IMG/VR virus record: IMGVR_UViG_3300030117_005585
Coordinates: 13,754 to 77,753 of that record
Strand: one strand, 5' to 3'
DNA from: a virus
Length of the DNA: 64,000 nt
The notes below the pieces were generated by a model that worked only from the letters and a program-made list of their open reading frames with translations, had not been told where the DNA came from and searched no databases. The translations under genes were made by a program, and so were the position numbers. Positions 44,391 to 64,000 of the stretch are shown in pieces (within the stretch, counting starts at the first letter, position 1; each line of letters opens with the position of its first letter).

Positions 44391-44442
44391 TTTAATTCCT
44401 GTTAATTTTCAATAGTTAAATAGCCTAGCTGGCCAAAAGTTG

Positions 44443-44514
44443 AGCGGAGGGTAGGAGTCGAACCTACATCTCTTCTTTGGAAAAGAAGTGTGTTTCCTAT
44501 AACACTTCCCCCGC
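44443..44514 (-). tRNA. tRNA-Gly(TCC)
   Basis: Acceptor stem GCGGGGG/CCTCCGC, U discriminator, anticodon arm CTTCT-TTTCCAA-AGAAG, T arm GTAGG-TTCGACT-CCTAC; CCA not encoded. Confidence 0.9.
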
Positions 44515-46559: not shown

Positions 46560-46576
46560 TTTTTTCCTAAAGGTTG

Positions 46577-46985
46577 TGGAGCTGAGGGGAGTCGAACCCC
46601 TGTCCAAGTAGTTTTCTTCAATAAGTCATTTACAGCTTAGCTGGTTTCCATCGGTAGAAACCAGCAAACAACCATGTGGATTCCTTTTACTCAGAACATA
46701 CCCTTTAACTGATATACTTTATACTCGCATATTAGAGTTGGTGTCTAACTCATTTTATGACCGAGTGTTAGACAACTCAGTAACTTATGCAGCGTATGCG
46801 TAAGTTGGTTGGTCTTGATTATAAGCAACCATAGGTGAGTAATCATACTCAGCTAAATGCCAATCAATTACCAACCCGTCTAGCGATTCATCGCCAATTA
46901 GGTTAGTTGAGTTTTATTTAAGAGTCTACTCAAACTCTGCTGCACTTAATTGTCAAATAACACCTGTCGAAACCATTACAGCCCC
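46577..46985 (-). ncRNA. ssrA: tmRNA (~409 nt)
   Basis: 5' GGGGCTGTAATGGTTTCGAC; 3' GGACAGGGGTTCGACTCCCCTCAGCTCCA (G3:U Ala acceptor); tag reading frame 46895-46785 ends YAYAA-stop. Confidence 0.96.
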
Positions 46986-55986: not shown

Positions 55987-56271
55987 CTACAATCTAATCT
56001 TCAATTGATTAGCTGCTTTTCTTAGTTCATGTATGTCGTAACATCTATTACTCATAAAACCATCCAACAACTTTCTAGCAGTACCAGATGTTATCTTCTT
56101 CTTATAAATAGTACCATTATGAAGAAAACTGTCTGCAGTTGTTGATGATATTTGATTTAGAAATTGTTTAACCTCTTTAAATTTTAGAAATGCTTCATAA
56201 CCAAAATTTAACTCAGAACCATCTGCTAAAAGAGTATATCTATCATAATCACTTAATCTATTTGACTTCAT
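55987..56271 (-). CDS. Hypothetical protein
   Basis: 94-aa ORF. Confidence 0.6.
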   Translation of the reverse strand: MKSNRLSDYDRYTLLADGSELNFGYEAFLKFKEVKQFLNQISSTTADSFLHNGTIYKKKITSGTARKLLDGFMSNRCYDIHELRKAANQLKIRL

Positions 56272-56301
56272 TTTTCATCCTCATCCTTTCTGTTAATTAA
56301 C

Positions 56302-56371
56302 AAGGGCTGGGAGAAAGGAATAAAACCCAGCCCTTTAATCGAGTGGCGTCACATTGAACAACGCCACTCTC
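56302..56371 (-). other. Two tandem GC-rich hairpins downstream of the AAA ATPase (terminator/regulatory)
   Basis: GAGTGGCGT...ACGCCACTC and AAGGGCTGGG...CCCAGCCCTT. Confidence 0.7.
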
Positions 56372-56381
56372 AGAGAAAAAC

Positions 56382-57536
56382 TTAGTTAGAATTCTCTACT
56401 TCTTCTTCATTGAATAAGTCTTCAGAAGAACCATCAGAGATATACTTCTGAACTAACTGTTTGACATAAGTCCTTTCAGACTCAAGTCCACCATCATCAG
56501 AAAACTGAGGATAGATAGTTACTTCAGCAGCTTCATCCAAACCGAAACCATCGTAAAGTAATCCAGCAACCTCAACAGAAGTTCTGGTTGAAATGCCGGT
56601 TGACAACCTACCAGCTTCAGACTTTGATTCTGTACGACTCTGTGAAGAAATCTCAGCGACAGACTTTAGTAAGTCACCATCAACATGTGGGAACATATAC
56701 TGAAGTAAGTCATGCTCTTCATCTGAATTAAGAACATCCATTTCAACAATTATGAATCTGTCCATAAGAGCTTTATCCATAACTCTGGTTGAGGTATACT
56801 CATTACCAATATTAGCGGTGGCGACAAAAGTAACACCCTCAGCGACATTGATAGTTTCTTGACCTTCACCTTCGTCAAGTCTTAGATATCTTTGTCCATT
56901 GTCTAAAACTGTCATAAGAATGTTCCAAGCGTCAGGATGAGCCCTACTCAACTCATCTAACAGAATAACAGCGTTAGGAGTTTGAATAGCCTTAACAAAA
57001 AGAGCTTCAGAAAAGTAAGTACCCTTCTTCTTATCGAAGTGGGTGTTACCAATTAAGGTAGCTCTTGGGTCTTGTGTGGCGCCTAAGTTGAAGTAGAAAT
57101 CAGGCCTATCAAGTGAGTTTACCAATGACTTAGCAGCCATAGTCTTACCACATCCAGCAGGACCTGTCATCAAAATATTTTTACCACGTACGGCGGAGCG
57201 AACAAGATACTTCCATTTTAGTTCTTTCATTTTCAAACCAGCAGGTTTTAGGTTGTAAGAACTATGAATAAAGTTAAGAACTTCAGCATGATCTGTAGGA
57301 ACATCAACTGATGAAACATCGATTACAGGAGCAGAAGTAGCTTCGAACATTTCCATTGGAACTTTCCACCAATAAACCCTACCATTTTTGCCAGTCCTTC
57401 TTTCTAAGGCCATACCAGCATTGTAAGCTTTCTTTCTGGTAGAAGTACCAATTTCTGATGTGTGTTTGTTACCATCAGCATCCCAAGCATTAAACCTATT
57501 GCCTGACTTTTCTATTTTTACGATTGTATTTGACAT
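56382..57536 (-). CDS. MoxR/CbbQ/NirQ-type AAA+ ATPase
   Basis: GPAGCGKT, ILLDELSRA, ATAN, DKALMDRF, ISTR. Confidence 0.92.
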   Translation of the reverse strand: MSNTIVKIEKSGNRFNAWDADGNKHTSEIGTSTRKKAYNAGMALERRTGKNGRVYWWKVPMEMFEATSAPVIDVSSVDVPTDHAEVLNFIHSSYNLKPAGLKMKELKWKYLVRSAVRGKNILMTGPAGCGKTMAAKSLVNSLDRPDFYFNLGATQDPRATLIGNTHFDKKKGTYFSEALFVKAIQTPNAVILLDELSRAHPDAWNILMTVLDNGQRYLRLDEGEGQETINVAEGVTFVATANIGNEYTSTRVMDKALMDRFIIVEMDVLNSDEEHDLLQYMFPHVDGDLLKSVAEISSQSRTESKSEAGRLSTGISTRTSVEVAGLLYDGFGLDEAAEVTIYPQFSDDGGLESERTYVKQLVQKYISDGSSEDLFNEEEVENSN

Positions 57537-57590
57537 AACTTATTTTATCCTTTTTTTAAGTTGTTTGTTTTTTCTCTAAAATCATATATA

Positions 57591-57619
57591 AAGCTACGAA
57601 TAAATTTGCTAACATACAA
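57591..57619 (-). promoter_or_regulatory. Repeated early promoter, copy 4
   Basis: TTGTAT-17 nt-TAGCTT. Confidence 0.85.
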
Positions 57620-57648
57620 GGAAAAGATCAAATTATTTCCAGTTTTTT

Positions 57649-57828
57649 TTAAGATTTCCAAAATCTAATCCTATAACTTGAAGTTGTGAAAGCTTCCCAA
57701 GTACAATTATTCCATATACATTTCCAATAATTATCAAAACCACTTCTATCGGTTGGTATCATTCTACAACCGCATTGACATTCTGGCTCTGTTTTGTACT
57801 TTCTATTATGTAGCCACTTCCTTATCAT
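57649..57828 (-). CDS. Small Zn-ribbon protein (59 aa)
   Basis: Not in ORF track. PECQCGCRM...WKCIWNNCTW. Confidence 0.6.
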   Translation of the reverse strand: MIRKWLHNRKYKTEPECQCGCRMIPTDRSGFDNYWKCIWNNCTWEAFTTSSYRIRFWKS

Positions 57829-57995
57829 TTGTTAATTTCATTTAATTTTACTTTGAGTTTGAAAGTCCAAGTCCCTTCTTTCTGTATAACCTCATAATTA
57901 TCTCCATCTATTGAAACGACTTCGAACATTCCAGTCATACCTGTCTTTCTTACTCTTACTAAATCACCAACTTTTATTTCTTTTTTATCTGACAT
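57825..57995 (-). CDS. Small KOW/SH3-like protein (56 aa)
   Basis: Not in ORF track. IKVGDLVRVRKTG...VVSIDGD. Confidence 0.6.
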   Translation of the reverse strand: MSDKKEIKVGDLVRVRKTGMTGMFEVVSIDGDNYEVIQKEGTWTFKLKVKLNEINK

Positions 57996-60020
57996 TTATT
58001 TCTCCAAAAATCTTTTGTTCATTGTTTTAGCGATTGGAAGCACTGCGGTTACATCTATGAACTCAGCACTTGAACCATACATTTTTGTAAAGGTTGAACT
58101 AGCTCTATCCCTATCCCAACTATCTCCGATGAAATAACTGAGAACTTTGACACCACGACCTCTGATTGAATCAACCATTTTCTTAGTGTGATTGACTGCT
58201 GTGTCGTAATTGTAATCAATGTCTTCATTAGAAAACATTGGCATACCATCTGAAAAGTTTAAGAAGTAGGAATCTTTATCATTAGAACCAACTTCAATTT
58301 CTTTCATCACAGCCTCAAAACATAAACCCTCTGGCGTAGTGCCTGATGGACGAAGCAAATGAAACAGATTTCTCACTTTTGAAATCTTATCAACTCTTGA
58401 ATCGTAAGCAATTAACATCAATGGACTTGTCTTATGACTTCTTCTACTCATTTGAGTTGATTGTGTGCTTCTGTATGAAATAACCAAATCAACATTGTTA
58501 ATCATTGAACAGGCTTTAGCAATCGCTGTTACGGCAGTTTGTGTATTTCTCCACTTATCTCCACCCATTGAGCCACTAGCATCAACTGAGATATGTAAGA
58601 AAGCATCAGAGTAAGATTCAACAAAGGTGGTGTTGAATACTCTTTCATTACCAAACCCAAGCTCAGCAATTAATCTTTTATCGATTCTACCACTATCCAA
58701 TCTAGTCCACTTAGTCTCACGTGACTCCCCACGCACCTGAAGTTTCTTACCTAAGATAGTTCCCATAACTAAACCCTTTTGAATACATTCTTTGTACTCT
58801 TCTGAAGACCATTGGTATGATGGATTTGTAATCATAGAAATTGTATCAGATTCAGCTAGTGCCTTATCGAATTTTTTTACCATAAGAACTTTAGTAGGAC
58901 TCTTTTTACCTGTCCATCTATCAGTAGCACCAGCAACATCAACATAACTCATTCCGGCAGACTCTACGGCATCCATAGCAGCCTTATCAGATTTGGTAAG
59001 TTTCTTCTTAGTAATATCACCATCCATAAATTTCTTCTGTTTTGAAACTGCATTTTCGAGCTGTTTTTTTTGTCTATCACTAAGTTGTGGTTTATCACCA
59101 CTATCTGAATCAGAACTACTAACACTTTCACCATTATCGGAACTTTCACTACCTTCGACATTTTCATCACCATTACCCTCTTCAGGTTCTTCAGTGGGAT
59201 TTACTGTTTGAACATCTAAGTTGTCCAAAAGAATACTAAAGACTTTTAGTGTAATATCAAAGGCCTCTTCAGTAGAGTTCAAAGATTTAACATTACTAAA
59301 AATAAGATTTCTGATTTTTTTGAGACCAGGTAAGGAATCCAAATCTGAGTTTTTATTTGTGAGATTGATAATTCTGAAAATATATGAATCCCAATCCAAA
59401 GAAGTGTATTCATCAGATTGAAGTGCTTTATCAATAATTTTAGAATGAAAATACTTATCATACATTGAGTGGTAGTAACCTTTGTAGCCAGGTGAATTTG
59501 AAAACACAAAGTAATCAATTCGTCTATCTTCTACATAATTAAGTAAATCCTTCAATTTAATTTTGACATCATCTCTATCAAAACCAAAGACTTCTGCTCT
59601 GTTGAAATATTCCTGAGGAATCTCATTCTCAAGATTTCTAAGAAAATCAAAATTAGAGAGTTTGATATGAGAACCTTCATGCAACGCCAAACCAACAGTT
59701 GGGTCGAATGTTTTGTCATCTAATTTAGAAGATATTACAACAGCTTTACCATCTGTATAACTATCTCCACGCGAATTAAAAGTAACTTTGATATCAGACT
59801 CACCAGTAACAATTGATACGAAATTACTGATAGCCCTACGATAAGATGCCAGTGCAACTAAATCTACACCTTTCTTAGTTTCTTCCTCATCAAAAATTGA
59901 TGTCCTACTGATATCATTGTCTAACCAAAAAGACGAATAATTATTTGTACGATTCTTAGCAGAGTATTTTTCTCTAAGAGCCATTGGGTTGAAGTTTCTG
60001 AGTGTGTTTGAATCTTTCAT
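57996..60020 (-). CDS. vWA-domain protein with N-terminal HExxH domain (MoxR partner, CobT-like)
   Basis: LHEGSH, NYVEDRRI, acidic linker, MIDAS VDASGSM, GTTPE, FSDGMP. Confidence 0.88.
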   Translation of the reverse strand: MKDSNTLRNFNPMALREKYSAKNRTNNYSSFWLDNDISRTSIFDEEETKKGVDLVALASYRRAISNFVSIVTGESDIKVTFNSRGDSYTDGKAVVISSKLDDKTFDPTVGLALHEGSHIKLSNFDFLRNLENEIPQEYFNRAEVFGFDRDDVKIKLKDLLNYVEDRRIDYFVFSNSPGYKGYYHSMYDKYFHSKIIDKALQSDEYTSLDWDSYIFRIINLTNKNSDLDSLPGLKKIRNLIFSNVKSLNSTEEAFDITLKVFSILLDNLDVQTVNPTEEPEEGNGDENVEGSESSDNGESVSSSDSDSGDKPQLSDRQKKQLENAVSKQKKFMDGDITKKKLTKSDKAAMDAVESAGMSYVDVAGATDRWTGKKSPTKVLMVKKFDKALAESDTISMITNPSYQWSSEEYKECIQKGLVMGTILGKKLQVRGESRETKWTRLDSGRIDKRLIAELGFGNERVFNTTFVESYSDAFLHISVDASGSMGGDKWRNTQTAVTAIAKACSMINNVDLVISYRSTQSTQMSRRSHKTSPLMLIAYDSRVDKISKVRNLFHLLRPSGTTPEGLCFEAVMKEIEVGSNDKDSYFLNFSDGMPMFSNEDIDYNYDTAVNHTKKMVDSIRGRGVKVLSYFIGDSWDRDRASSTFTKMYGSSAEFIDVTAVLPIAKTMNKRFLEK

Positions 60021-60043
60021 ATATTTCCTTTATTATATAAACA

Positions 60044-60072
60044 AAGCTACGAAGAATTTTGCTAATATACAA
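60044..60072 (-). promoter_or_regulatory. Repeated early promoter, copy 5
   Basis: TTGTAT-17 nt-TAGCTT. Confidence 0.85.
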
Positions 60073-60129
60073 GCATTATTTCTTGTTTTCTGGATATTTT
60101 TTTTATTGGTTGTCATATACTATATATGG

Positions 60130-60146
60130 TACAAGAACTGTACCAA
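60130..60146 (-). promoter_or_regulatory. Sigma54-like -24/-12 element
   Basis: TTGGTAC-AGTTC-TTGTA, with TGACAAAATG repeats upstream. Confidence 0.5.
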
Positions 60147-60207
60147 ACTCAAAAGTCTGTCATTTTGTCACCACTATCACACTATCACACATTTTGTCAG
60201 AAGTAGA

Positions 60208-60267
60208 AACGGCTCCTAGCTTTTTTAAGTTTGGTAGATAGTGGAAACTAAAAATTTAGGAGCCGTT
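60208..60267. other. Long hairpin (11-bp perfect arms, extendable inward)
   Basis: AACGGCTCCTA ... TAGGAGCCGTT. Confidence 0.7.
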
Positions 60268-60272
60268 ATAAA

Positions 60273-60690
60273 AATTGAAAATCGGGGGATGTAGGGTTAA
60301 CGATTACCTACAACTTCTAGCTCAGATTTTTTTTACTTTGTACCTAATACCTAAAAGTTACTTTAGTTCTCTTCAAAGTGGTTAGCTTCATTAGAGTGAG
60401 TACAACCTCTGTATTATTGCCTTATCTCTCTGAGTTTAGATTAATTCAGCCACTAAGTGGGATTTGGTTTTATCCTACCCACAACAAAGTCAAAGAATCG
60501 TGTTCTTTAGTTATTCTAGAAGTACATTCCAAGTCGTATGTCTACGAATCGCTTCAACCTACGATATTTAGCAGGTGGATATAGTCACCACAACTTCTTG
60601 GTAGATTCCCTTATGAGCTTCTATGTTTACTCATTATTCAGGCAATCCCATAAAGAGTTAATTACTCTCTTTACTTTCTATTTTCAAATT
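60273..60690 (-). ncRNA. Candidate large structured ncRNA (~415 nt)
   Basis: No credible ORF; the ends pair (TTGAAAAT/ATTTTCAA); many internal and long-range helices; ATATTTATA motif just upstream. Confidence 0.65.
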
Positions 60691-60745
60691 GTCAAAAAAC
60701 TTATAAATATATATATATTCGAAAAATCCCAAACTGTCTTTTTTT

Positions 60746-61357
60746 TTAAACTTTTTTCAATTTAAGTTTTAACTGAGATATGTAACCATCTATTTTTTTA
60801 ATGTCTTTATGGTCGTCTGACATTTTTTCTCTTCTTAAAATTAATTTACCTAATGCTTTTTGTATGTCTAATTTTGCTAAACCTTTCATACTTTTTCTGT
60901 AATATAGATGTTCTAATGCTTCGTCTTCTGCTTCTGCTCCACGAACACCAGCAACAGCCGTTATGTATTCTGTTTCATAAACTTCAGCATCAGCTATACT
61001 TTCTATTTCATTCCAAACTGTATTTTCCCACATAGCATCTAAGTCTAAATCTTCAAGTGGTTCAGCTAATTCTTTTTCTTTAGCTAATCTTTCCTCTTCT
61101 TGTTTCTTTTTTCTCTTGATGGCGAATTCAGCATCATAGTATGTAGTTGATAAAGAATCACATTCACTTAACCATTTACCGTAATTCTTCCAATTAGGTC
61201 TACCATTAGAATTTCTATATTCGGTATCATCACATTCAGTTCCTCTAAATGTAGATGTTTTAAATTCTGATACACGAGTTACATCTTGACTATAGCTTAG
61301 TTGGATGTTCAGACAAATAAAAAGTATTAGGGTTGTATTCAAAATACCAAATTTCAT
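60746..61357 (-). CDS. Exported protein at the end of the pilin operon
   Basis: Signal-peptide-like N-terminus, Cys pair, AVAGVRGAEAE motif. Confidence 0.6.
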   Translation of the reverse strand: MKFGILNTTLILFICLNIQLSYSQDVTRVSEFKTSTFRGTECDDTEYRNSNGRPNWKNYGKWLSECDSLSTTYYDAEFAIKRKKKQEEERLAKEKELAEPLEDLDLDAMWENTVWNEIESIADAEVYETEYITAVAGVRGAEAEDEALEHLYYRKSMKGLAKLDIQKALGKLILRREKMSDDHKDIKKIDGYISQLKLKLKKV

Positions 61358-61685
61358 TATTCATTCTCCTATGATATAGTTTAGTTCCATCAAATTGCCA
61401 TTCATTATCTTCATCTGGTAATCCCAAATCAAAAGTAACAATGACACCTCTCGTACGACCTAATACTAAAAGTGGATGTTCAGGCCAACTTTCAATACCT
61501 GTTAATTCTTTTTGTTTCTCAGAGTATATTTCTAACTCTTCCCAAATTTTGTATGTAAAATCTTTTTCGAATTTAAGCTCTTCTAATTCAATTCTTTTTT
61601 CAAATCTTGGTATAGATACAACACTCAAAATTCCAATCAATAAAATCACTATAACTAATTCAATCATAGTGTAGCCTTTACTCAT
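61290..61685 (-). CDS. Type IV prepilin-like protein
   Basis: KG|YTMIELVIVILLIGILSVVSIPRF. Confidence 0.9.
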   Translation of the reverse strand: MSKGYTMIELVIVILLIGILSVVSIPRFEKRIELEELKFEKDFTYKIWEELEIYSEKQKELTGIESWPEHPLLVLGRTRGVIVTFDLGLPDEDNEWQFDGTKLYHRRMNNEIWYFEYNPNTFYLSEHPTKL

Positions 61686-62131
61686 TAGATTTCTCCGATT
61701 ACATATTCCTCATATGATGGACTATCTTCATCCACATCACTAATGATAAATAGTTTAGTTATATATCCTTGTGAAGAAGTATCAGATTTTATTTCATATT
61801 TAAATGGATTTCTGTTAGAGTTGAGCGGTAGATCTCCACTAAACAAATGATTAGGAGTTCTACCATCAGAGAGTATTAACTCAAAATAATCTTCATCTAA
61901 TAAATTGTTTTCTGGCTCAGTTGGAAGCTGTGGATTACCTTTCATATGAGTTTCTTGATAATATCTTAAAAATGAATCTTTTATGATTGACATATTAGCA
62001 AGGTTGATTTGCTTTTGGGTATCCATAGTTAAATTACTAAAAGTGGGAATAGCAAATGACATCACTACTCCCACCAAAGCAATACTAACTACTAACTCCG
62101 CCAATGTGAAACCAGCATTTGAGTTTCTCAT
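61685..62131 (-). CDS. Type IV prepilin-like protein
   Basis: AG|FTLAELVVSIALVGVVMSFAIPTF. Confidence 0.9.
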   Translation of the reverse strand: MRNSNAGFTLAELVVSIALVGVVMSFAIPTFSNLTMDTQKQINLANMSIIKDSFLRYYQETHMKGNPQLPTEPENNLLDEDYFELILSDGRTPNHLFSGDLPLNSNRNPFKYEIKSDTSSQGYITKLFIISDVDEDSPSYEEYVIGEI

Positions 62132-62142
62132 TGGTTTCTCCT

Positions 62143-62574
62143 TTAATCTACGATAGCTTCTCTAGCACCAATTGAACCAACACCAGCATTATCGCCTGAT
62201 TGAACTCCTTTGTCGTATGCCCAAGCATAACGAGAGTTATCTTTTCGTTGGTGTGTGATTTTGTTAGTTGTGGTATTGTATGTCCACTCACCATCGGTAT
62301 CAGCATTATCAACATCTGTTGAATCATATCCAACTGGCACCTGATCTAAAGCAGCAAAAGGATGGTCAGGCCAACTCTTTCTACCGTTATCAAGAAGTTG
62401 TTCAACAGCGTAATTTTCTAAACCAGCTTTCACAGAAGAAATTATTGCATTTTCAGCAGCTTCTTCAGCTTTGTCTACCACACCAACATATCTTGGTATG
62501 GCTACGGCTGCAAGAATTCCTAAAATGATAGTAACCATTATTAGTTCTATTAATGTGAATCCTTTGTTGTTCAT
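62143..62574 (-). CDS. Type IV prepilin (major-pilin-like)
   Basis: KG|FTLIELIMVTIILGILAAVAIPRY. Confidence 0.93.
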   Translation of the reverse strand: MNNKGFTLIELIMVTIILGILAAVAIPRYVGVVDKAEEAAENAIISSVKAGLENYAVEQLLDNGRKSWPDHPFAALDQVPVGYDSTDVDNADTDGEWTYNTTTNKITHQRKDNSRYAWAYDKGVQSGDNAGVGSIGAREAIVD

Positions 62575-62592
62575 TGTATTCTCCGTTAGATT

Positions 62593-63231
62593 CTAAGGTT
62601 GTAATTTCTTGTTAAAGTTCTTTGGACTTTCCAAATCTGCAATATAAAGAATTGGAGCATAGGATTGTTGTCCACTTCCACCACCAGCAATTACTGTGTA
62701 GATATAGTGACCGTCCTGAAAAGGTGATTTGATAGCATTACCACCAAACTCATTTAAGAACTCTTCAGCACCAGCTGAAACATCAAATGAACCATCACCA
62801 TTATCATCTTCTGATACATTCACAGAAGAACCTTGAGGTGCTGGTGACTCTAAATTGTCAGTTCCAAACACAGAAGCCCATTGTGATGCCTCTTCACTTT
62901 CATAAGTTTCGAATACATCGATACTTGAGAGAAGTAAATCTTCGTTAGCATATCCACCATTATCATCAGGCACACTTTCGTTATACTTTACCTGACCAGG
63001 AAATCTACCACGACCTTCTGATGTTACTTTAGCGTTATAAAAATTGTTAGCTGATTTCATTATCTTATCGATATCAGCTAATGTTTTTTTCTCCTTTGCA
63101 CCCTCTCCAACTCCTGAAAATTTAGGTGCGGCAGTTGTAGCAAGTGTAGCCATCATAGCAGTTGTTACTGCAAATTCGGCAAGTGACTGCCCACTTCTAC
63201 CCTTTAGATGTTTTTGTATTGTTTTGAACAT
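62593..63231 (-). CDS. Atypical prepilin-like protein
   Basis: Start corrected to ATG 63231 (AAGGAG RBS); SG|QSLAEFAVTTAMMATLATTAAPKF. Confidence 0.8.
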   Translation of the reverse strand: MFKTIQKHLKGRSGQSLAEFAVTTAMMATLATTAAPKFSGVGEGAKEKKTLADIDKIMKSANNFYNAKVTSEGRGRFPGQVKYNESVPDDNGGYANEDLLLSSIDVFETYESEEASQWASVFGTDNLESPAPQGSSVNVSEDDNGDGSFDVSAGAEEFLNEFGGNAIKSPFQDGHYIYTVIAGGGSGQQSYAPILYIADLESPKNFNKKLQP

Positions 63232-63272
63232 TATGTTCTCCTTAATTAAGATTAGTATTAACACTTATATAG

Positions 63273-63289
63273 TACAATTACTGTACCAA
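63273..63289 (-). promoter_or_regulatory. Sigma54-like -24/-12 promoter of the pilin operon
   Basis: TTGGTAC-AGTAA-TTGTA about 40 nt upstream of the start codon; TGTAAC/GTTAC repeats at about 63396-63445. Confidence 0.55.
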
Positions 63290-63449
63290 ACTTGCGAATA
63301 TTGAAAACTTTTTCTTCTTAGTTTTTGTAAACAATTGTGGTACAGGTATTTACTTGAATAAAAAAAATCCTTAACAAAAATTAAGGATTAGAATGTGTAA
63401 CATTTTGGTTTACTATGTTACAGTTATGTAACATAAATTTACGATTAGA

Positions 63450-63782
63450 CTAAATACCACCTCTTATATTGTGTTGTGCTTTAGTATATCTTTTATCTCC
63501 GATAGTAGATGAATCCGCCATTACATTGATTTCATTTGGTGTTTGAAATCCTTTTTGAATACCAGCTTTTTTTAATCTATTACTCACCATATCGGTTAAA
63601 TCACCCTTGCCTTCAGGATTCTTCTTTTCGAAATAATCTCTACCTAAAGCTATAGTTAATCTATCCTCATCATCCAAATGAATTGTAGCTCGAACTGGCA
63701 CACCCTTTAAGGCTTTCACTACTTTATCAAATAGTTTCTTATCTGCTTTCTTTTCAACTATCAAATCTTTTAATTTAATCAT
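63450..63782 (-). CDS. Phage hypothetical protein (possible internal head protein)
   Basis: MIKLKDLIVE N-terminus. Confidence 0.65.
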   Translation of the reverse strand: MIKLKDLIVEKKADKKLFDKVVKALKGVPVRATIHLDDEDRLTIALGRDYFEKKNPEGKGDLTDMVSNRLKKAGIQKGFQTPNEINVMADSSTIGDKRYTKAQHNIRGGI

Positions 63783-64000
63783 TGTGATTTATCATCTAGT
63801 CCATCTTTACCATCAAAGTAATTGTAAACACTTTGTAAGTAATCCATAGACTTAGTGAGTTTAGATTGAACCCAAGCCGGCATTTGAACCTCACCGCCAT
63901 CACCAACATTGTCAACTATTTTGTAAATCATTTTTGCGTATTCCATAGAACGCTCTAACTGTGACTTTGCCATTTGCCCTTCATGGTCACTAGCCTCATT
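63779..64000 (-). CDS. Phage protein, C-terminal part (starts beyond the window)
   Basis: Frame open to window end: NEASDHEGQMAKSQL...PAWVQSKLT. Confidence 0.65.
   Translation of the reverse strand, partial: NEASDHEGQMAKSQLERSMEYAKMIYKIVDNVGDGGEVQMPAWVQSKLTKSMDYLQSVYNYFDGKDGLDDKSQ

What the first reader, a model, noticed from the sequence alone, without database searches (positions are those of the whole stretch)
60746..63445. Phage-borne operon of four type IV prepilins plus an exported protein, with a sigma54-like promoter
Seen: four tandem genes with class III signal peptides (G|QSLAE, G|FTLIE, G|FTLAE, G|YTMIE), then an exported protein, flanked by phage genes on both sides. Pilins 2 and 4 are paralogs (SWPDHP...DGEWTY...HQRKDN versus SWPEHP...DNEWQF...HRRMNN), and 1 and 3 share a YY/FY...G...P segment. 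No PilB, PilC, PilD or secretin is present in the window, so assembly must use host machinery. Known: host pilA genes are often RpoN-dependent and type IV pili are common phage receptors. Inference: a pilus-remodelling module that replaces or jams host pili, giving superinfection exclusion or changing adhesion, grazing resistance or DNA uptake in infected cells.
Basis: partly seen in the sequence, partly recalled or inferred. Interest (0 to 1): 0.88.

Follow-up and report, generated by a model that had tools for sequence, protein, structure and literature searches.

The report
Ocean phage carries host pilus genes
A large uncultured ocean phage carries five genes (four pilus subunits plus one exported protein) copied, on-switch included, from the pilus locus of its probable host, SAR406/Marinimicrobia bacteria, so infected cells most likely rebuild or re-coat their pili with phage-made parts; single phage-encoded pilins already have laboratory precedents.

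Summary
Five minus-strand genes (63231-60746) encode four class-III-signal pilins and one Sec-exported protein. The same operon, in the same order, is intact and under purifying selection in 14 related IMG/VR phage contigs, so it is not an assembly chimera.

The window is the end of a 77.7 kb fragment of an RM378/"Far-T4"-like myovirus. All five genes have their nearest cellular relatives in one locus of Marinimicrobia (SAR406, GTDB Fidelibacterota) genomes. That locus is an MSHA-type type IV pilus cluster with PilD, an MshE-type ATPase, a sigma-54 activator, PilC, tandem arrays of pil1-like and pil2-like genes, minor pilins and a secretin.

The "sigma54-like" motif is homologous to the sigma-54 promoters in front of the host pilin genes. 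Both share TGTAACA enhancer-like sites upstream. No pilus machinery, rpoN or activator was found in six related phage fragments (314 kb summed, partly overlapping).

Best reading: a host-derived cassette switched on by the host's own pilus regulator and assembled by host machinery. It re-surfaces the pilus, most probably to exclude competing phages.

Phage pilins are already known (P-FimU, P-PilA, SNJ2). This multi-gene, promoter-carrying cassette in a marine phage is a new variant. This scan has reported the same cassette family on other DNA several times.

The parts
63396..63433 (-). Three TGTAACA/TGTTACA half-sites, read as enhancer (activator-binding) sites 110-145 nt upstream of the promoter
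   Evidence: Three of the window's 15 copies fall within 38 bp. The same heptamer is about 31-fold enriched at -60 to -220 of 13 phage promoters and about 14-fold enriched before host pilin promoters.
63359..63390 (-). AT-rich hairpin plus T-run (TAATCCTTAA-loop-TTAAGGATT-T7). It is terminator-like and closes the upstream gene.
   Evidence: Read from the sequence. The consensus scanner missed it because the stem has few G-C pairs. An equivalent hairpin sits at the same place in the related loci.
63264..63288 (-). Sigma-54-type promoter TGGTAC-N5-TTGTA (GG-N10-GT), followed by the AT-rich stretch TATATAAG
   Evidence: Exact motif twice in the window against 0.12 expected. Conserved before pil1 in all 13 phage loci. 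Homologous to host pilin promoters such as TTTGGCACAGTAGTTGTAT and TTTGGCACGCCGTTTGTTATATATAAGTAAC.
62593..63231 (-). pil1: divergent 212-aa type IV pilin (G|QSLAEF, Glu+5), belonging to no Pfam family
   Evidence: Host loci carry 3-4 tandem paralogs, several with their own sigma-54 promoter. dN/dS is 0.21.
62143..62574 (-). pil2: 143-aa canonical type IV pilin, probable major subunit (MshA-like)
   Evidence: N_methyl 30.8 bits. AF2 model pLDDT 86.8 with a long alpha-1 helix and a four-stranded sheet. Best structural match is Shewanella MshA (Z 6.2), followed by other pilins. dN/dS is 0.13. Host arrays hold up to 15-17 copies.
61685..62131 (-). pil3: 148-aa pilin, orthologous to the gene that follows the pil2 array in the host locus (minor-pilin position)
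   Evidence: N_methyl 28.7 bits. Host orthologues are 38-42% identical and in the same position. dN/dS is 0.25.
61290..61685 (-). pil4: 131-aa pilin, a diverged paralog of pil2 found only in the phages
   Evidence: N_methyl 21.2 bits. 32% identical to pil2. Forms a monophyletic long-branch clade made only of phage rows (SH-aLRT 100). dN/dS is 0.25.
60746..61357 (-). exp: 203-aa Sec-exported protein with the invariant core VAGVRGAEAEDEAL..LYYR.SM. This phage's copy carries a ~75-aa two-Cys insert.
   Evidence: Host homologues of 150-152 aa (55-58% identical) lie about 10 kb beyond the secretin of the same host pilus locus, in both G003 and G004. The host family is named only 'hypothetical protein [Candidatus Marinimicrobia]'. 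dN/dS is 0.31.
60742..63326 (-). Extent of the cassette: nucleotide homology (83-87%) to relatives L004-L009 starts about 40 nt before the promoter and stops at the exp stop codon
   Evidence: blastn of window 56001-64000 against the related loci; no flank aligns except orf110 to L012.
60129..60145 (-). Second copy of the sigma-54-type motif (TGGTACAGTTCTTGTAC), upstream of the cobT-like VWA gene. It is outside the cassette and has no TGTAACA sites.

Best explanation
This is a 2.6 kb host-derived pilus cassette carried by a large RM378/'Far-T4'-like marine myovirus whose probable host is Marinimicrobia (SAR406).

Proposed mechanism:
1. After infection, host RNA polymerase with host sigma-54 is activated by the PilR-like enhancer-binding protein encoded inside the host's own MSHA-type pilus locus. 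It fires the phage promoter (TGGTAC-N5-TTGTA, with TGTAACA sites upstream).
2. The four prepilins enter the inner membrane and are cut by host PilD.
3. They are polymerised by the host MshE-type ATPase and PilC platform through the host secretin.
4. exp enters the periplasm via Sec.

The infected cell therefore displays a pilus built from, or capped with, phage-specified subunits. The most likely pay-off is receptor replacement, which would block adsorption of rival pilus-dependent phages or of sister virions.

Shown: homology of genes, promoter and enhancer sites to the host locus; absence of machinery in the phage fragments; conservation and purifying selection.
Inferred: expression route, processing, assembly and the pay-off.
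For: Phage context:
- Baseplate-wedge and tail genes resemble those of Mel-JY01, immuto and RM378.
- The window lies on an IMG/VR viral record.
- The operon order is conserved in 14 viral contigs at 47-96% amino-acid identity.
- All five genes have dN/dS of 0.13-0.31 and no internal stops.

Host link:
- The best cellular hits are Marinimicrobia MAGs.
- L031 and L032 carry pil1-like, pil2-like and pil3-like genes in the same order.
- Those genes sit within a locus of PilD, a T2SSE+MshEN ATPase, a Sigma54_activat+HTH_8 regulator, T2SSF, minor pilins, a PilO-like protein and a secretin.
- exp homologues lie in the same neighbourhood.
- 24 of 41 genomes of that family have pil2 homologues.

Regulation:
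- The host genomes have rpoN.
- Host pilin genes carry TGGCAC-N5-TTGC/TTGT promoters.
- The phage motif is conserved in 13 loci.
- TGTAACA sites are enriched about 31-fold (phage) and about 14-fold (host) upstream of these promoters.

Machinery: none was found in the phage fragments.

Evolution and structure:
- Phage pil2 sequences are interleaved with host copies in the tree.
- The pil2 model has a pilin fold, with its best match to MshA.

Transcripts: metatranscriptome contigs from four studies match pil1-pil3 at 98-100% identity, while the flanks laid with them had none. This is only a weak hint, because these are contigs and DNA carry-over is possible.

Precedents: P-FimU and P-PilA (PMC12952977) and SNJ2 pilins (PMC12426801).
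Against: - Nothing shows processing, assembly or any phenotype.
- The host is uncultured, and the host link rests on gene homology alone; a DNA search with the phage tmRNA found no match.
- The -12 element is GT, not the canonical GC.
- pil1 has Gln at +1 and no family hit, and its model failed (pLDDT 38.7).
- pil4 and exp were not seen in the RNA contigs.
- The phage genome is only about 42% complete, so machinery or an activator could lie in the missing part.
- The three nearest cultured relatives have no N_methyl pilins, so the cassette is not needed for this virion type.
Confidence: 0.62

Rival explanations
1. Function-keeping module (like an auxiliary metabolic gene). The phage supplies fresh subunits so that the host pilus keeps working during infection. 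Possible pilus roles are attachment to particles, buoyancy or positioning, and DNA or nutrient capture. Receptor masking is not the aim.
For: - The whole regulatory unit was copied, so expression follows the host's own pilus signal.
- pil1-pil3 keep the host order and are strongly conserved.
Against: - Phage and host pilins are diverse and interleaved, and host arrays reach 15-17 copies. This looks like an arms race at the pilus surface rather than simple resupply.
- The phage adds a pilin (pil4) that no sampled host has.
Confidence: 0.22
2. Jamming module. One or more phage pilins, with pil4 the best candidate, act as poison subunits that stop pilus extension or retraction. This removes the receptor altogether.
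For: - pil4 is a long-branch, phage-only derivative of the major pilin.
- Truncated phage PilA-like proteins have been proposed to act in this way (PMC12952977, section 17).
Against: - Three of the four pilins are close orthologues of host subunits, with intact globular domains and low dN/dS.
- A jam would need only one gene.
Confidence: 0.1
3. The conserved motif is not a sigma-54 promoter. It is instead a phage-specific promoter or operator: a near-palindrome GGTACA..TGTACC plus TATATAG, read by a phage factor.
For: - The motif is nearly palindromic.
- It differs from the canonical sigma-54 consensus at two positions.
- It also precedes the phage cobT gene.
Against: - It is positionally and sequence-homologous to host promoters that are canonical or share the same TTGT variant.
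- TATATAG is not a general promoter element in this phage.
- The enhancer-like sites are shared with the host.
Confidence: 0.12
4. Assembly chimera or decaying passenger DNA with no function.
For: The operon sits about 550 nt from the contig end.
Against: - The same cassette is embedded in phage genes in independent assemblies.
- G+C content is within the window's range.
- There are no stops, and dN/dS is 0.13-0.31.
Confidence: 0.02

Closest known systems
P-FimU and P-PilA: pilus subunits encoded by Pseudomonas aeruginosa F10-like prophages, Xylella prophages and some virulent phages (Sztanko et al., Cell Rep 2026, PMC12952977)
   Same: The phage copies a host type IV pilus subunit and carries no assembly machinery. 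Incorporation into the host pilus gives defence against pilus-binding phages. Sequence diversity points to competition between phages.
   Different: Those cases are single genes in Proteobacteria phages. Here four pilins plus an exported protein travel as one cassette, with the host's sigma-54 promoter and enhancer sites, in a large marine myovirus of an uncultured phylum. Function is untested here.
SNJ2 PilA1 and PilA2: pilins of a temperate haloarchaeal pleolipovirus (Xiang et al., Cell Rep 2025, PMC12426801)
   Same: Tandem viral pilins hijack the host secretion machinery. They were acquired from host chromosomes more than once. The host keeps several chromosomal paralogs.
   Different: That is an archaeal system in a temperate provirus, and its pilins serve as the receptor for a second virus. 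No sigma-54 control is involved.
MSHA type IV pilus locus (mshB-A-C-D structural genes, MshE ATPase) of Vibrio and Shewanella
   Same: The source locus in the host has an MshEN-domain ATPase, an ExeA/MshM-like AAA protein, a secretin and a run of pilin genes. The pil2 model is closest to Shewanella MshA (Z 6.2).
   Different: Sequence identity to MshA is negligible (6%). No NCBIfam MSHA model was matched. The host locus has large tandem pilin arrays and a sigma-54 activator.
TcpF and CofJ: soluble proteins exported by type IVb pilus machines and encoded in the pilus operon
   Same: A Sec-exported protein of no known family is encoded at the end of a pilin operon.
   Different: There is no sequence or structural similarity, and export of exp through the pilus machine is pure conjecture.

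Membership tests
Type IV pilin (class III signal peptide, PF07963/TIGR02532) | Short basic leader ending in Gly, hydrophobic +1 to +20 segment with Glu at +5 | tested here: met
   pil2, pil3 and pil4 reach the Pfam cut-off at 30.8, 28.7 and 21.2 bits against 21.2. TIGR02532 scores are 31.8, 23.7 and 23.5 against 16.3. pil1 has Gly-1, Gln+1 and Glu+5; it is recognised only by profile-profile comparison (95%, E 2.4e-8).
Type IV pilin (class III signal peptide, PF07963/TIGR02532) | Long N-terminal alpha-1 helix packed on an antiparallel beta-sheet head | tested here: met
   The pil2 AF2 model has pLDDT 86.8, helix 8-63 and four strands. The top matches are pilins: MshA at Z 6.2, PilA4 at 5.3 and the EHEC pilin at 5.3. 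The pil1 model was unusable (pLDDT 38.7), so this feature is untested for pil1.
Type IV pilin (class III signal peptide, PF07963/TIGR02532) | Cleavage and N-methylation by a prepilin peptidase, and polymerisation into a filament | not testable with these tools
   Only the presence of PilD (A24_N_bact + Peptidase_A24) in the probable host's locus is shown.
Sigma-54 (RpoN)-dependent promoter | -24 GG and -12 GC elements with fixed spacing (TGGCAC-N5-TTGC) | tested here: inconclusive
   Spacing and GG are met, but the -12 element is GT in all 13 phage copies. The same TTGT variant is found before host pilin genes in G004, and canonical TTGC in G003.
Sigma-54 (RpoN)-dependent promoter | RpoN and an enhancer-binding activator are available, with upstream activator sites | tested here: met
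   rpoN is present in G003 and G004. A Sigma54_activat+HTH_8 gene lies between the ATPase and PilC in the host locus. TGTAACA sites are enriched about 31-fold (phage) and about 14-fold (host). Binding itself was not tested.
Phage-encoded pilus-subunit replacement (P-FimU / P-PilA kind) | Phage gene homologous to a pilus subunit of its host, with no machinery in the phage | tested here: met
   Identity to Marinimicrobia genes reaches 78% for pil1 and 70% for pil2. No PilB or PilD was found in the related phage fragments. Those genomes are incomplete.
Phage-encoded pilus-subunit replacement (P-FimU / P-PilA kind) | Incorporation into the host pilus and protection from pilus-binding phages | not testable with these tools
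   There is no cultured host, so this rests on inference only.
Type II secretion pseudopilins (GspG-K) | Match to the GspG/H/I/J/K equivalog models | tested here: not met
   The best score is GspG at 46.2 bits against a cut-off of 88.85, and it covers the N-terminal helix only.
Flp/TadE-type pilins (considered for pil1) | Match to the Flp_Fap or TadE family models | tested here: inconclusive
   No Pfam family matched pil1 at E up to 0.1. The G|xxxxEF motif resembles the Flp motif, but the source locus is of T4a/MSHA type.

The most novel reading that the evidence does not exclude
The cassette may do more than mask a receptor. The phage-only pilin pil4 and the retargeted host periplasmic protein exp are translationally coupled by a 68-nt overlap. 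Together they could convert the host MSHA-type pilus into a phage-specified organelle. Such an organelle might display or secrete exp, or tether infected cells to particles or to uninfected SAR406 cells, and so raise transmission in a dilute ocean. Because it is switched on through the host's own sigma-54 pilus regulator, the phage would in effect be reading the host's surface-sensing state.
Probability: 0.12. Interest if true: 0.85.

Novelty: new variant of a known kind. Interest (0 to 1): 0.6.

Why it matters
It gives a gene-based host assignment (SAR406/Marinimicrobia, an abundant uncultured deep-ocean phylum) for a widespread group of large marine phages.

It extends phage-encoded pilus subunits from single genes in laboratory Proteobacteria and haloarchaea to a whole regulated cassette in the open ocean. 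A phage here appears to have wired its genes into a host sigma-54 and enhancer circuit.

Tandem arrays of up to 15-17 pilin paralogs in the host, and phage and host pilins interleaved in the tree, point to the pilus as a contested surface in SAR406 and its phages. That idea can be tested with metatranscriptomes, single-cell genomics and heterologous reconstitution.

Tried and rejected
Contexts of distant homologues therefore came from the genome scan instead.
- blastn of the window end against cultured phages found only cobS-like similarity to Microcystis phage Mel-JY01.
- tblastn of pil2 against cultured phages gave only weak hits, at most 31% identity over at least half of pil2, and mainly to the N-terminal helix.
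- The pil1 AF2 model had pLDDT 38.7 and was not searched.
- Foldseek against the PDB with the pil2 model gave no hit at E <= 0.001, although pilins topped the list.
- ESM Atlas gave nothing usable for exp.
- Complex prediction of the pil4 head with mature exp returned no verdict (score 0.00). This is evidence neither for nor against binding.
- A DNA search with the phage tmRNA found no match in five candidate host genomes. This is uninformative.
- The careful tree did not finish, so the quick IQ-TREE result was used.
- The idea that TATATAG is a general (late) promoter of this phage was rejected. It occurs in intergenic DNA only next to the two TGGTAC motifs.
- The RNA contigs did not cover pil4 or exp. 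This is not evidence of silence.
- No paper describing pilin cassettes in Marinimicrobia phages turned up in four searches of the paper library aimed at phage-encoded pilins; a fifth located the P-FimU paper.
Full report
**What is there.**
The window is the last 64 kb of a 77.7 kb IMG/VR viral record that CheckV rates as 42% complete. Five tightly packed ORFs lie on the minus strand between 63231 and 60746:
- pil1, 212 aa, leader ending GRSG|QSLAEF.
- pil2, 143 aa, G|FTLIE.
- pil3, 148 aa, G|FTLAE.
- pil4, 131 aa, G|YTMIE. Its ATG overlaps the pil3 stop.
- exp, 203 aa, with a Sec signal peptide. Its start lies 68 nt inside pil4, behind its own AGGAGA.

Pfam N_methyl reaches its cut-off for pil2-pil4, and TIGR02532 agrees. 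pil1 matches no family. Its first ~75 residues do align with the pilin alpha-1 profile (hhalign 95%, E 2.4e-8). pil2 and pil4 are paralogs (E 8e-23). The pil1/pil3 'Y...G...P' similarity is a family-wide feature at the end of alpha-1.

An AF2 model of pil2 (pLDDT 86.8) has the pilin lollipop fold. Its best structural matches are pilins, led by Shewanella MshA at Z 6.2.

**Is it phage, and is it real?**
The window encodes a gp6-like baseplate wedge, an SbcC-like nuclease, a cobS/cobT-like AAA+VWA pair, a tmRNA and a tRNA. The nearest cultured relatives of its baseplate and tail proteins are Microcystis phage Mel-JY01, Flavobacterium phage immuto and Rhodothermus phage RM378. None of these three has N_methyl pilins.

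The contig ends only about 550 nt beyond the operon. However, a scan of IMG/VR found the same operon in 14 other viral contigs, with the same gene order wherever the fetched stretch reaches that far, at 47-96% amino-acid identity. In L005 and L010 it is embedded between tail genes and primase, RuvC and SbcD genes. The 110-aa ORF at the window's end has a homologue in L012.

All five genes lack internal stops, and their median dN/dS is 0.13-0.31. A chimera or decaying passenger DNA is excluded.

Nucleotide homology to the closest relatives (83-87%) runs from 63326 to 60742, that is from about 40 nt before the promoter motif to the exp stop codon. No other part of the 8 kb compared (56001-64000) aligned to these loci apart from orf110 to L012. 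The operon therefore behaves as a discrete 2.6 kb cassette.

**Where it came from.**
pil2 belongs to a very abundant marine family. It has 4421 hits, many at 70-97% identity in Tara and other ocean data, and 217 clusters at 50% identity with E <= 1e-10.

A scan of one genome per GTDB species put Marinimicrobia MAGs on top. Two of their contigs, one of 583 kb, carry the homologous locus, in this order:
1. Response regulator.
2. PilD (A24 peptidase).
3. T2SSE ATPase with an MshEN domain.
4. Sigma-54 activator (Sigma54_activat + HTH_8).
5. PilC.
6. Three or four pil1-like genes.
7. One to about seventeen pil2-like genes.
8. A pil3-like gene.
9. Three more minor pilins.
10. A LamG protein.
11. An ExeA/MshM-like AAA protein.
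12. A PilO-like protein.
13. A secretin.
14. A CHASE2 cyclase.

About 10 kb further on, after an FG-GAP protein and a TPR protein, lies a 150-aa exported protein. It is 55-58% identical to the conserved part of exp, and it is present in both genomes. That family is annotated only as a hypothetical protein of Candidatus Marinimicrobia.

These genomes share one GTDB family, and 24 of the 41 sampled members have pil2 homologues. In a quick ML tree, phage pil2 sequences are interleaved with host copies, with at least two label changes forced by supported branches. pil4 forms a long-branch clade made only of phage rows.

**The switch.**
The second copy precedes cobT. It is conserved before pil1 in all 13 phage loci, within otherwise divergent spacers.

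Host pilin genes are preceded by TTTGGCAC-N5-TTGC in G003. In G004 they are preceded by the TTGT variant, which continues into the same TATATAAGTAAC as in phage L005. The host genomes encode RpoN.

A heptamer, TGTAACA or its complement TGTTACA, clusters 60-220 nt upstream of these promoters:
- Phage loci: 26 sites in 1958 nt, against a background of 0.00043 per nt.
- Host loci: 9 sites in 1280 nt.

Three of the window's 15 copies lie within 38 bp at 63396-63433. TATATAG is not a general promoter element of this phage. I therefore read the motif as a captured sigma-54 promoter with its enhancer. The non-canonical GT at -12 is the main reservation.

**What the phage lacks.**
No Peptidase_A24 match, and no T2SSE match above the family cut-off, was found in six related phage fragments (77.7, 61.8, 41.8, 54.2, 44.7 and 33.8 kb); Sigma54_DBD (three of them) and Sigma54_activat (five) gave no rpoN or true activator. 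The weak matches are the cobS-like AAA protein. All of these records are incomplete.

**Hints of expression.**
Contigs from four metatranscriptome studies match pil1, pil2 and pil3 at 98-100% identity. The flanks laid at the same time (59900-60310 and 63188-64000) had no cover. The manA-like RNA region was far deeper. Contigs cannot show strand or starts, and DNA carry-over is possible, so this is only a weak hint.

**Mechanism and rivals.**
The best-supported reading is that the host's own sigma-54 pilus regulator turns on the cassette, and host PilD, MshE, PilC and the secretin process and assemble the phage subunits. The pilus is thereby re-surfaced.

The pay-off is inferred. I consider receptor replacement against competing phages the most likely, for these reasons:
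- The laboratory precedents, P-FimU/P-PilA and SNJ2.
- The large pilin arrays in the host.
- The interleaved phage and host pilin tree.

The alternatives are keeping pilus function going during infection, or jamming the pilus through pil4. A phage-specific operator reading of the motif, and an artefact, are unlikely.

**Novelty.**
Searches of the paper library found phage pilin precedents but nothing on Marinimicrobia phages or multi-gene pilin cassettes. This scan has already reported the same cassette family, with the same reading, on DNA from several other genomes. My analysis reached its conclusions before I read those notes.

This window adds four points:
- The host origin of the fifth gene, exp.
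- The phage-only status of pil4.
- The cassette limits (63326-60742).
- A second sigma-54-type promoter before cobT.

Noticed in passing
window 60286-60483 (-), RNA cover to about 60669: Rfam manA RNA motif (RF01745, 65.1 bits against a gathering score of 55.2) lies between the cassette and cobT. Metatranscriptome contigs of four studies cover 60327-60669 at word depths up to about 56, far above the pilin genes. The transcribed RNA may therefore be longer than the Rfam model.
   Followed up: partly
window 60129-60145 (-), upstream of 57996-60020 and 56382-57536: A second exact copy of the sigma-54-type motif precedes the cobT-like VWA gene and the cobS/MoxR-like AAA gene. It has no TGTAACA sites; a GTGATAGTG direct repeat lies upstream instead. 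The phage may use host sigma-54 for more than the pilin cassette.
   Followed up: partly
window 63450-63782 (-); L005 9871-13945; L012 95-1616: Many small phage ORFs start with nearly the same N-terminus (MIKLKDLL.E / MVKLKDLLTE) but diverge afterwards. This is either a multigene family or a conserved translation-start element in this phage group.
   Followed up: no
L005 3622-7154; L010 3965-7151; L012 3644-7104: In relatives, a module of envelope proteins sits directly upstream of the pilin cassette: a 430-aa signal-peptide protein ending like an outer-membrane barrel, a membrane-anchored coiled-coil protein, a thioredoxin-like exported protein, a lipoprotein (L005 and L012 only) and small membrane proteins. 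None of its proteins found a tblastn match in the window's contig.
   Followed up: partly
L032 (G004:C5:219300-230000); also L125 (G031) and L120 (G045): Marinimicrobia chromosomes carry tandem arrays of up to 15-17 full-length pil2-like pilin genes and 3-4 pil1-like genes. Several have their own sigma-54 promoter. This is an unusually large pilin repertoire.
   Followed up: partly
window 46574-46985 (-) and 44442-44514 (-): The phage encodes a tmRNA (Rfam 106 bits; ARAGORN tag ending ...YAYAA) and a tRNA-Gly(TCC). The tmRNA has no DNA-level match in five candidate host genomes.
   Followed up: partly
window 60746-61357 versus L010 9233-9622, L015 and L016: exp comes in a long form (~203-210 aa, with a 75-aa two-Cys insert after the signal peptide) and a short form (~130 aa) among the phages. 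All phage forms lack the host protein's C-terminal ~25 residues (...SKWAKFYK).
   Followed up: partly
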